Below, one piece after another: positions 34-8,558 of a DNA stretch of 8,558 nt; position 1 is the stretch's first letter; each line of letters begins with the position of its first letter. Source of the stretch: a virus. Taxonomy: Duplodnaviria; Heunggongvirae; Uroviricota; Caudoviricetes. The notes under the pieces are model-generated. The model was given only the letters and a program-made list of their open reading frames with translations. It was not told where the DNA came from and made no database searches. The stretch lies in IMG/VR virus record IMGVR_UViG_2690316276_000007; one strand, 5' to 3'. A program made the position numbers and the translations under genes.

Positions 34-5375
<5,342 letters not shown>

Positions 5376-6123: not shown

Positions 6124-7332
6124 ATGAGTGATATTTTCTCAGGAAGAGAATTATCAGTACAGTATAATGCTGATATTGGTAACAGAACACCACAGGGAGC
6201 AGGCAATGTAGTAATTAAACAGATTAATACTTTTCCAACCTTAACAATAAATTCAGAAGCAAATAATTTTGAAACGTATGATAGTGATTACAGGACAGTA
6301 CTACTATCTGATAAATCAGTAGCACCATTTGATATTGTAGTTAACTACCTACCTGATGATCCTACACATCAATTCTTGGATAATGCCGCTAAGTCTCAGC
6401 AGCTTTTCCAGATCATCATTCAGTACCAGATGAATAAGGATGAAAATACCATTACTTATGCGATGGTGAATGGTTATATCACCTCTTATAAGTTGGACGG
6501 TGATAAAGGTTCAGTAGTAACCAAGGCATACAGTTTTGCCCCACATGATGTGATCGCACGTGCAATGACCATTAACGCACTATCGCCAATCTATCAGGGG
6601 GACTACGGTTTAGGTTCGAACACTACGGATGTACCTCAGTACTCACCATCAGTACCTACGGGTAACAGCTTCATCAAAGTACCATCATCTCAAGCAGGCA
6701 ATCCTGCCGGGGCGGATCTGATGGGAGTAGGGCTTGTAGATGGCACTACTGTAAGTTCTCTTGCGATGACAAAGACGGGTACTCTAAGTATCTATGCAAA
6801 GAACGCTACAACCGCCTGGACACGCATATATACCGCTACACAGATGGACGGGCGATACGTACCCCTTACACGTACCATCAACGGCCATGCACTCACGGCC
6901 AATTTAGTACTGAACAGTGAAGATACAGGTTCAGTACCTGATACACGTACTGTGAATGGTAAGCCTCTAAGTGAGGATGTAGTACTTACCAGTACTGATA
7001 CCGGCTCTGTACCAGATACACGGACAGTTAATGGTCATGTACTCAGTGAAGATATAGTACTGAGTAGTGAAGATACAGGTTCAGTACCTGACACGCGTAC
7101 AGTGAACGGTCATGTACTTAGTGAAAATGTAGTACTGAGTAGTGAAGATACAGGTTCAGTACCTGATACACGTATGGTCAACGGTCATGTACTCAGTGAG
7201 GATGTAGTACTTACCAGTACTGATGTTGGCTTAGGGAAGGTTACAGATGATGCCCAGCTTACGATAGCAGGTAATCTAAGTGATCTGGGGGACGTGGAAG
7301 AAGCACGTATTAACCTTGAAGTGGCACACTGA
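6124..7332 (+). CDS. Major tail tube protein-like (lambda gpV-like N-domain) with C-terminal tandem fibre-like repeats; 3' end interrupted by IS911, which supplies the last codons and the stop
   Basis: AAGGA 8 nt before the ATG. N-terminal ETYDSDY...QLFQIIIQYQ resembles the gpV tube domain (ESYDDSY...ALLAWF). Five 25-aa repeats at 6868-7242. The terminal codons (gaa gtg gca cac tga) lie inside the IS911 left end. Confidence 0.7.
   Translation: MSDIFSGRELSVQYNADIGNRTPQGAGNVVIKQINTFPTLTINSEANNFETYDSDYRTVLLSDKSVAPFDIVVNYLPDDPTHQFLDNAAKSQQLFQIIIQYQMNKDENTITYAMVNGYITSYKLDGDKGSVVTKAYSFAPHDVIARAMTINALSPIYQGDYGLGSNTTDVPQYSPSVPTGNSFIKVPSSQAGNPAGADLMGVGLVDGTTVSSLAMTKTGTLSIYAKNATTAWTRIYTATQMDGRYVPLTRTINGHALTANLVLNSEDTGSVPDTRTVNGKPLSEDVVLTSTDTGSVPDTRTVNGHVLSEDIVLSSEDTGSVPDTRTVNGHVLSENVVLSSEDTGSVPDTRMVNGHVLSEDVVLTSTDVGLGKVTDDAQLTIAGNLSDLGDVEEARINLEVAH
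6868..7242 (+). repeat. Tandem in-frame 75-bp repeats x5 (25-aa units, consensus TRTVNGHVLSEDVVL(S/T)S(E/T)DTGSVPD) inside the tail gene
   Basis: Units start at 6868, 6943, 7018, 7093 and 7168. Protein sequence is conserved with synonymous DNA differences between units; the fifth unit diverges at its 3' end. Confidence 0.9.
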
Positions 7333-7352
7333 ATTTGGCCACCTGAACAGAG
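7317..7352 (+). repeat. IS911 left terminal inverted repeat (IRL, about 36 bp)
   Basis: TGAAGTGG...GGCCACC...AGAG aligns imperfectly with the reverse complement of the right end visible at 8530-8558 (shared GGCCACC core and AGAG). Confidence 0.8.
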
Positions 7353-7388
7353 GTGATATGCTCACCTCAGAACAACACAGGTGCTCCA

Positions 7389-8558
<1,170 letters not shown>

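What the first reader, a model, noticed from the sequence alone, without database searches (positions are those of the whole stretch)
6868..7242. Repeat units are mosaic at the DNA level
Units 2 and 5 share an identical stretch, gat gta gta ctt acc agt act gat. Units 3 and 4 share gta ctg agt agt gaa gat aca ggt tca gta cct. Other positions differ only synonymously (cgt act gtg aat / cgg aca gtt aat / cgt aca gtg aac). This points to repeated duplication or gene conversion under protein-level constraint, and makes repeat-number variation by recombination plausible.
Basis: seen in the sequence. Interest (0 to 1): 0.4.

Follow-up and report, generated by a model that had tools for sequence, protein, structure and literature searches.

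The report
Recombining repeat modules in prophage fibre gene
Five 75-base repeats in a Shigella sonnei prophage fibre gene are a patchwork made by recombination, and relatives carry one to five copies; this is ordinary phage-fibre evolution, and the gene copy here is already broken by an insertion element.

Summary
Positions 6868-7242 hold five in-frame 75-bp units (25 residues each). Column permutation (p<=0.001) and codon usage (P 1e-5 to 4e-4) both rule out chance.

- One close relative (96% identical upstream) has three units.
- Another relative has five homogenised units.
- The wider family has zero to five units.
- One S. sonnei allele is identical over 8.6 kb except for a clean 75-bp loss. 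Its junction lies inside the 37-nt tract shared by units 3 and 4. An assembly collapse is not excluded for this allele.

The array is the proximal shaft of an 883-residue fibre protein. Its N-terminal domain is a paralogue of the prophage's own tail-tube protein. Intact alleles end in a Peptidase_S74 chaperone domain. In this window IS911 truncates the gene at codon 398.

The 25-residue repeat class is widespread: about 1,450 representative proteins match, with up to 7 tandem units. It has no Pfam model. This is a new member of a known kind, of modest interest.

The parts
6124..7317 (+). The 5' 398 codons of a prophage fibre gene. Intact alleles encode 883 aa. The annotated ORF 6124-7332 gains its last residues (EVAH) and its stop codon from IS911.
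   Evidence: ORF list and translation. DNA is 100% identical to S. sonnei loci up to 7318. The intact 883-aa allele is seen in L016/L017 and cluster members P0211/P0212.
6124..6573 (+). N-terminal tail-tube-fold domain (about residues 1-150), a paralogue of the prophage's own tube protein.
   Evidence: phrog_158 'major tail protein', E 6.8e-15. AlphaFold model pLDDT is 75-92 over most of residues 10-150. Foldseek matches lambda gpV and other tube proteins at E 1.7e-7, probability 1.0. BLASTP gives 31% identity, E 2e-20, to the adjacent 157-aa Phage_tail_3 protein of L001.
6661..6843 (+). Second small beta domain (about residues 180-240), conserved across the family. It may correspond to the Ig-like decoration domain of lambda gpV.
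   Evidence: Model pLDDT is 72-82 with strands at 182-235. Invariant residues G201, G219, N227, W232, T237 and Y245. The top Foldseek hits span 263-273 columns of full-length gpV, but at rmsd 10, so the equivalence is only suggestive.
6868..7242 (+). Array of five 75-bp / 25-residue shaft units (TRTVNGxxLSxxVVLxSxDTGSVPD): u1 6868-6942, u2 6943-7017, u3 7018-7092, u4 7093-7167, u5 7168-7242. u5 is the terminal unit and its last 6 codons leave the repeat.
6970..6999 (+). 30-nt tract in u2 that is identical to 7195-7224 in u5 (AGT GAG GAT GTA GTA CTT ACC AGT ACT GAT).
   Evidence: The same 21-nt core is identical in L018 unit 2.
7195..7224 (+). The 30-nt tract in u5 that matches u2. It gives the terminal unit an internal-type 'TSTD' segment.
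7055..7091 (+). 37-nt tract in u3 that is identical to 7130-7166 in u4. It is the crossover site of the 4-unit S. sonnei allele.
   Evidence: The L094 hybrid unit equals u3 with the last base of u4, and the 75-bp gap is the only difference over 8,652 bp.
7130..7166 (+). The 37-nt tract in u4 that matches u3.
6916..6942 (+). 26-27-nt tract at the end of u1 that is identical to the ends of u3 and u4.
7243..7317 (+). Post-array shaft module (TDDAQLTIAGNLSDLGDVEEARINL), the common 'NLSDL...ARxNL' fibre motif.
   Evidence: The motif matches solved tail fibres 9zd7 (gp92) and 7z47_D.
7317..8558 (+). IS911 (IS3 family). Its left end lies at 7317-7319, orfA starts at 7389, and orfB follows. The contig ends about 9 bp before the IS end. 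The element truncates the fibre gene.
   Evidence: Gene homology stops at 7318 and IS homology starts at 7317. The sequence is 99.8-99.9% identical to elements annotated 'IS3-like element IS911 family transposase' in E. coli. Pfam finds HTH_Tnp_1 and rve.

Best explanation
The five 75-bp units encode 25-residue structural modules of the proximal shaft of a prophage fibre protein. The protein reads, from the N-terminus: a tube-protein-like anchor, a small beta domain, the repeat shaft, further shaft motifs, a variable distal part, and a Peptidase_S74 chaperone domain.

The array grew and is reshuffled by homologous recombination or replication slippage between misaligned units. This happens within one gene (unequal exchange or gene conversion) and between related prophages. 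Selection keeps the 25-residue consensus. The result is units that differ by many synonymous changes but carry patches of exact identity, and a unit number that differs between relatives (0-5 in this family, up to 7 in other fibres).

Shown here:
- the mosaic itself and its statistical support;
- the copy-number differences among relatives;
- chimeric units shared between phages;
- a 4-unit allele whose junction lies in the longest identical tract;
- truncation of this copy by IS911.

Inferred: that unit number sets shaft length or reach, and that the fibre is trimeric and attached through its tube-like domain.
For: - Mosaic.
- Constraint: pN/pS 0.11-0.55.
- Copy number: 5 units in the window, L016/L017 and L019; 3 in L018 (an exact 150-nt gap), L020, L023 and P0006; 2 in many others; 1 or 0 in the rest.
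- Unit exchange: the nearest neighbour of each quarter-unit switches between L018, L019 and sister units, often at 0 mismatches.
- Terminal-unit conversion: the terminal unit has been converted to an internal type.
- Larger-scale mosaicism of the gene: against L019, the N-terminal body is 69.5% identical but the array and shaft are 82-96%. A shared breakpoint lies near gene nt 1500.
- 4-unit S. sonnei allele: 0 mismatches over 8,652 bp apart from a 75-bp gap, with the junction inside the 37-nt u3/u4 tract.
- Independent duplication in the same gene: a perfect 165-bp tandem duplication in another S. sonnei allele.
- Fibre identity: PHROG tail and tail-fibre hits on the repeats; PF13884 in intact alleles; sources name it 'tail fiber domain-containing protein'; the repeat class co-occurs with Peptidase_S74, Collar and Gp34_trimer.
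- Precedent: tail-fibre tandem duplications arise under selection in phage EfV12-phi1 (PMC6365445).
Against: - All other S. sonnei copies examined carry an identical 5-unit array: 15 contigs with P0001, L016/L017, and most of the 92-member cluster. Change is therefore rare on the timescale of this clone.
- The single 4-unit allele comes from draft short-read assemblies and could be a collapse across the 37-nt tract.
- The exact order of events cannot be reconstructed. L018 is not a simple deletion derivative of the window array.
- No structure or experiment links unit number to fibre length or host range. The AlphaFold monomer is unreliable over the array, with pLDDT 24-52.
Confidence: 0.8

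Rival explanations
1. The patchwork was imported rather than made in place. The array is a recombinant between the arrays of different prophages (an L018-like 5' part and an L019-like middle), with little or no exchange among units of the same gene.
For: u1 and most of u2 match L018 units at 0-2 mismatches per segment. The middle segments of u3 and u4 match L019 units at 0-2 mismatches. The N-terminal body and the shaft have discordant identities to L019, 69.5% against 82-96%.
Against: The terminal unit carries a segment identical to the array's own u2. The ends of u1, u3 and u4 are identical to one another but differ from L019-type ends. The 4-unit S. sonnei allele is an intra-array event on an otherwise identical 8.6-kb background. 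The two processes are not exclusive.
Confidence: 0.3
2. Simple serial duplication followed by independent point mutation. The identical stretches are chance survivals or the product of codon bias, with no exchange between units.
For: Units are old, with pS up to 0.7. Array edges inflate apparent clustering for pairs that involve u1 and u5.
Against: Clustering of concordant sites has p<=0.001. Codon bias gives P 1e-5 to 4e-4 for the tracts. Multi-site partitions are incompatible. Chimeric units occur relative to L018 and L019.
Confidence: 0.04
3. Assembly artefact: the array, or its mosaic pattern, is a mis-assembly of short reads.
For: The window is a short draft contig that ends inside an IS. 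Several S. sonnei partial proteins start or end near the array.
Against: The same array sequence occurs in at least 15 contigs, including a 4.98-Mb contig, in two IMG isolate genomes, and in most of a 92-member protein cluster. Units differ by 11-36%, so reads place them uniquely.
Confidence: 0.02
4. Programmed hypervariation: a diversity-generating retroelement target, or a phase-variable contingency repeat that switches the fibre on and off or changes its specificity at high frequency.
For: The array lies in a receptor-recognition type of gene and has near-identical repeated segments.
Against: Differences between units are of all base types, not adenine-specific. No reverse transcriptase is called in 21.9 kb around the intact gene. 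Units are 75 nt and in frame, so a change in number cannot shift the frame. Hundreds of S. sonnei contigs carry the same array.
Confidence: 0.02

Closest known systems
Tandem duplications in phage tail-fibre genes that alter host range: T4 gp37 small-domain duplications (Tetart et al. 1996, as cited in PMC6365445) and the 1.8-kb in-frame duplications in Enterococcus phage EfV12-phi1 (PMC6365445)
   Same: In-frame tandem copies of a fibre segment arise by recombination or slippage, and copy number varies between closely related phages.
   Different: Here the units are small (75 bp), old and diverged, with exchanged patches. No host-range effect has been shown. The copy in this window is a pseudogene.
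Fibre shaft pseudo-repeats whose number sets shaft length, such as the roughly 15-residue repeats of the adenovirus fibre shaft (general knowledge, not tested here)
   Same: A short structural motif is repeated in a trimeric fibre shaft, and its number differs between related viruses.
   Different: The motif is a different, 25-residue one. No structure exists for this repeat, and any length effect is inferred only.
Tube proteins with outward decoration: lambda gpV (tube domain 1-156 plus an Ig-like domain) and SPP1 gp17.1* (FN3 extension made by frameshifting) (PMC8718954)
   Same: The N-terminal domain has the tube fold and is homologous to the prophage's own tube protein. It is followed by a small beta domain and an outward extension.
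   Different: The extension is a fibre of more than 600 residues with an S74 chaperone domain, not a single Ig or FN3 domain. It is encoded by a separate gene upstream of the plain tube gene. Incorporation into the tube has not been tested.
Peptidase_S74 (intramolecular chaperone) fibres and spikes, such as the endosialidase type (Pfam PF13884)
   Same: Intact alleles end in PF13884.
   Different: The window copy has lost that end to IS911. The N-terminal anchor is tube-like, unlike characterised S74 fibres.
Solved tail fibres that share the shaft motifs: 9zd7 'short tail fiber gp92' and 7z47 chain D 'putative tail fiber'
   Same: They share the 'NLSDL...ARxNLGL' motif (E 1.7e-14). 7z47_D also shows a weak 'VNG..L....L....VGLGNV' match (E 0.005).
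   Different: Neither has a tandem 25-residue array of this kind. The similarity is confined to short motifs.

Membership tests
25-residue tandem fibre repeat class (consensus about [ST]RT[VI]NGxxL[ST]xx[IV]xLxxxDxGxVP); no curated model exists | Period of 25 residues / 75 nt, in frame, head to tail | tested here: met
   TRF period 75. Five in-frame units. Unit HMM hits at 249, 274, 299, 324 and 349.
25-residue tandem fibre repeat class | Motif shared with many other proteins that carry tandem runs | tested here: met
   1,457 representative proteins at E<=1e-3 and 410 at E<=1e-10. Tandem runs of 1-7 units among the top 144.
25-residue tandem fibre repeat class | Occurs in phage fibre or tail proteins | tested here: met
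   PHROG tail and tail-fibre families hit the repeats. Partner proteins carry Peptidase_S74, Collar and Gp34_trimer.
25-residue tandem fibre repeat class | Covered by a curated Pfam or NCBIfam model | tested here: not met
   The only hit is PF21601 GldM_2nd, at 26.5 bits with no stretch passing on its own, which I judge spurious. NCBIfam gives nothing.
Peptidase_S74 (intramolecular chaperone) tail fibres | C-terminal PF13884 domain in the full-length gene | tested here: met
   The 858-aa allele and the 286-aa downstream fragment carry PF13884. P0006 also carries it.
Peptidase_S74 (intramolecular chaperone) tail fibres | Domain present in the copy in this window | tested here: not met
   IS911 cuts the gene at codon 398.
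Peptidase_S74 (intramolecular chaperone) tail fibres | Trimerisation and autoproteolytic release of the chaperone | not testable with these tools
   Needs biochemistry.
Siphophage tail-tube proteins (lambda gpV / Phage_tail_3 type) | Tube-protein fold in the N-terminal domain | tested here: met
   Foldseek E 1.7e-7 to 1e-6, probability 1.0, against lambda, 80alpha, NF5 and monocin tube proteins. The model is confident over most of residues 10-150.
Siphophage tail-tube proteins (lambda gpV / Phage_tail_3 type) | Sequence homology to a bona fide tube protein | tested here: met
   31% identity over 137 aa, E 2e-20, to the prophage's 157-aa PF08813 protein. phrog_158, E 6.8e-15.
Siphophage tail-tube proteins (lambda gpV / Phage_tail_3 type) | Passes the Pfam tube-protein model | tested here: not met
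   No PF08813 or other tube family at E<=0.01.
Siphophage tail-tube proteins (lambda gpV / Phage_tail_3 type) | Polymerises into the tube, or forms a ring on it | not testable with these tools
   Needs virion structure or proteomics.
Diversity-generating retroelement target (VR/TR) | Adenine-specific differences between repeat copies | tested here: not met
   The variable columns show all substitution types.
Diversity-generating retroelement target (VR/TR) | Reverse transcriptase gene nearby | tested here: not met
   No RT family among the called genes in 21.9 kb of L001 or in the window.
Phase-variable contingency repeat | Frequent number changes within a lineage | tested here: inconclusive
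   One 4-unit allele (2 contigs) against at least 270 contigs with 5 units. The allele may be an assembly collapse.
Phase-variable contingency repeat | A change in number shifts the reading frame or promoter spacing | tested here: not met
   Units are 75 nt and in frame.

The most novel reading that the evidence does not exclude
The gene represents an uncharacterised class of siphophage fibre. Its anchor is a duplicated copy of the phage's own tail-tube protein (tube fold plus a small beta domain). The fibre would therefore be built into or onto the tube, for example as a specialised ring near the neck or as an occasional tube subunit. The 25-residue modules would then act as a recombination-adjustable spacer (0-5 units in this family) that sets how far the receptor-binding end projects.
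Probability: 0.3. Interest if true: 0.55.

Novelty: new member of a known kind. Interest (0 to 1): 0.3.

Why it matters
The array is a clean small example of how phage fibre shafts evolve. Short structural modules are duplicated, lost and patched by recombination while the protein motif is kept. In one allele the junction of a unit loss lies exactly in the longest identical tract.

There are two practical points:
- The 25-residue repeat class is common, with about 1,450 representative proteins, but it has no curated model. It instead attracts a spurious GldM_2nd label.
- The fibre's tube-protein-like anchor is unusual and could show how some siphophages attach extra fibres.

For this strain the array has no functional meaning, because IS911 has broken the gene.

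Tried and rejected
- Megablast of the gene against 5,426 complete E. coli genomes found no match, and blastn against 50,697 phage records found none. Shigella is not in those sets.
- tblastn of the N-terminal body against phages found only DCP80, at 25% identity.
- Two metagenome pattern scans returned 0 and 1 hits. Viral pattern scans returned only loci already held. The 4-unit junction is absent from IMG/VR.
- A sequence search of solved structures with the whole protein gave only weak PorM hits, E 0.03. Together with the Pfam GldM_2nd hit, I reject these as repeat-driven false positives: no single stretch passes, and the same label appears on unrelated fibre proteins.
- NCBIfam gave nothing for the fibre.
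- The AlphaFold monomer gave no usable model of the array (pLDDT 24-52), so no rise per unit could be estimated.
- I tried to derive L018's 3-unit array from the window's array by a single deletion, and the window's array from L018 by a single unequal crossover. Neither fits.
- GC content by gene segment gave no clear junction signal.
- The diversity-generating retroelement, contingency-locus, invertible-segment and assembly-artefact readings were considered and rejected, as set out under the rival explanations.

Full report
**What the window is.** The 8,558-bp window is a whole draft contig of a Shigella sonnei assembly (CXBB01000165.1, GCA_001254295.1). It carries the head module of a prophage:
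- large terminase, 73-1533;
- lambda-family portal, 2075-3583;
- a fused prohead protease and major capsid gene, 3531-5375;
- two small connector genes.

Next comes ORF 6124-7332 (402 aa), which runs into IS911. Gene homology to other S. sonnei copies stops at 7318 and IS homology starts at 7317. The element is 99.8-99.9% identical to annotated IS911 copies in E. coli. The last residues (EVAH) and the stop codon of the ORF come from the IS, so the gene is truncated at codon 398.

**The observation.** Positions 6868-7242 are five in-frame 75-bp units of 25 residues each. Tandem Repeats Finder (period 75, 4.2 copies, score 371) and the repeat finder also detect them.

Both quoted identical stretches exist, and the true exact runs are longer. 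Units 2/5 share 30 nt (6970-6999 = 7195-7224). Units 3/4 share 37 nt (7055-7091 = 7130-7166). Unit 1 also shares 26-27 nt with units 3 and 4. Overall pairwise identity is only 64-89%.

Three tests show the pattern is not chance:
- Permuting the 39 variable columns gives p<=0.001 for clustered concordance in pairs 1-3, 1-4, 2-5 and 3-5.
- Multi-site partitions are incompatible, for example {1,2|3,4,5} against {1,3,4|2,5}.
- Codon bias would give the identical tracts with P of about 1e-5 to 4e-4.

pN/pS between units is 0.11-0.55, with pS up to 0.7. The units are therefore old, constrained at the protein level, and patched with young identical segments. One caveat is that the first half of unit 1 and the last six codons of unit 5 are the edges of the array, which inflates some of the clustering.

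**Relatives.** The protein cluster of the window ORF has 92 members, all from S. sonnei:

| Allele | Length | Contigs | Change |
|---|---|---|---|
| Intact | 883 aa | at least 230 | none |
| Nonsense | 567 aa | 22 | TGG to TAG |
| Nonsense plus duplication | 622 aa | 15 | perfect 165-bp tandem duplication on the nonsense background |
| IS911 | 402 aa | 1 | this window |
| Four-unit | 858 aa | 2 | one unit missing |

All of these carry the same five units except the 858-aa allele. Its DNA (L094) has no mismatch to the intact allele over 8,652 bp apart from one 75-bp gap. Its hybrid unit is unit 3 with the last base of unit 4. That is the product expected from recombination or slippage within the 37-nt tract shared by units 3 and 4. 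It comes from short-read assemblies, so a collapse cannot be excluded.

Outside S. sonnei the picture is as follows:
- L018 is 95.7% identical over the 744 nt upstream of the array. It has three units, an exact 150-nt gap. Its unit 2 equals window unit 2 codons 1-6 plus window unit 5 codons 7-19.
- L019 is only 69.5% identical upstream but 82-96% identical through the array and proximal shaft. It has five units that are homogenised, at 69-73 of 75 positions identical.
- The nearest neighbour of each quarter of each window unit switches among L018 units, L019 units and sister units, often at zero mismatches.
- The terminal unit in L018, L019 and the wider family has a 'TK/SK' type segment. The window's terminal unit carries 'TSTD', identical to its own unit 2, so an internal segment has been copied into the terminal unit.
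- Across 79 related loci the number of contiguous units is 0-5.

**What the gene is.**
- Residues 1-150 hit PHROG 158 'major tail protein'.
- They model confidently as a tube-protein fold that matches lambda gpV and other tube proteins at Foldseek E 1.7e-7.
- They are 31% identical (E 2e-20) to the prophage's own 157-aa Phage_tail_3 protein, which is encoded just downstream.
- A second small beta domain (about residues 180-240) follows, then the repeats, then 'NLSDL...ARxNL' shaft motifs shared with solved tail fibres 9zd7 and 7z47_D.
- Beyond a breakpoint near gene nt 1500, shared by L016, L018 and L019, comes a variable distal part.
- Intact alleles end in a Peptidase_S74 chaperone domain.

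The gene lies between the head-completion genes and the tube gene. It is therefore a fibre whose anchor is a tube-protein paralogue. Where it sits on the virion is not known. Known analogies are tube proteins with outward decoration domains, lambda gpV and SPP1 gp17.1* (PMC8718954).

**The repeat class.** The 125-residue array matches 1,457 representative proteins at E<=1e-3 and 410 at E<=1e-10. Tandem runs of up to 7 units occur among the best hits. Partner proteins carry fibre hallmarks: Peptidase_S74, Collar and Gp34_trimer. No Pfam or NCBIfam model covers the repeat. The GldM_2nd label that these proteins attract has no single stretch passing and is spurious.

**Mechanism.** The best-supported reading is that the units are shaft modules which are duplicated, lost and patched by homologous recombination or slippage between misaligned units. 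This happens both within one gene and between related prophages, under selection for the 25-residue consensus.

The exact tracts of 26-37 nt are about the minimum length for RecA-dependent exchange in E. coli. That figure is from my own knowledge and was not tested here. It fits with change being rare: one variant allele among hundreds of S. sonnei contigs.

That unit number tunes shaft length or reach is an inference. Precedents are the tail-fibre duplications selected during coevolution in phage EfV12-phi1 and those in T4 gp37 (PMC6365445).

**Rivals.** I considered and disfavoured pure duplication with chance identity, assembly artefact, and a diversity-generating retroelement or contingency locus. 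Import of the patchwork from other prophages is a real contributor, but it cannot explain the intra-array identities or the 4-unit allele.

**Verdict.** This is an ordinary process in phage fibre genes, seen here in a gene copy that is already dead. Interest is modest at 0.3. The tube-paralogue anchor of the fibre is the more unusual feature and deserves a separate look.

Noticed in passing
window 7317-8558: IS911 is inserted in the fibre gene at codon 398, and the contig ends about 9 bp short of the IS end. Other S. sonnei copies of this prophage carry IS elements at different places (L001 8316-9544 and 14503-15671), so the prophage is decaying by independent IS hits.
   Followed up: yes
window 6124-6573; L001 12876-13349: The N-terminal 140 residues of the fibre protein are a paralogue (31% identity, E 2e-20) of the prophage's own tail-tube protein and have the tube fold. 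A fibre anchored by a tube-protein copy does not seem to be a described arrangement.
   Followed up: partly
L001 11273-11602 and 11867-11869 (outside the window, downstream of the IS911 site): Some S. sonnei alleles carry a perfect in-frame 165-bp tandem duplication (55 residues, MKKASNLSDL...GAST) and a TGG-to-TAG nonsense change that splits the gene into 622-aa and 286-aa ORFs. The 567-aa allele has the nonsense change without the duplication. No obvious microhomology flanks the duplication.
   Followed up: partly
window 3531-5375: The prohead protease (Peptidase_S78) and the major capsid protein (Phage_capsid) are fused in one 614-aa ORF, which overlaps the 3' end of the portal gene by 53 nt.
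   Followed up: no
L016/L018/L019, fibre gene nt about 1470-1530: All three fibre genes drop from about 90% to about 40% identity at the same point (near the 'GTGWIALGIGQGGTGA' motif). This looks like a shared recombination junction between the proximal shaft and the distal, presumably receptor-binding, part.
   Followed up: partly
L093 (PQ671644.1, Escherichia phage DCP80) 6001-10374: The only isolated-phage record with a homologue is a 141-kb genome labelled Straboviridae. It carries the same lambda-like head module followed by two consecutive tube-domain fibre genes. The record may be chimeric or mislabelled.
   Followed up: no
S. sonnei cluster members P0222 (ends at residue 249) and P0214 (starts at residue 251): In at least 13 S. 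sonnei assemblies the contigs break exactly at the start of the repeat array. This suggests another IS insertion there, or an assembly break caused by the repeats.
   Followed up: no
window 6868-7242 and proteins P0075, P0077, P0079: Pfam GldM_2nd (PF21601) scores just above its cut-off on this repeat class with no single stretch passing. The precomputed label on these fibre proteins is very likely a false positive.
   Followed up: partly
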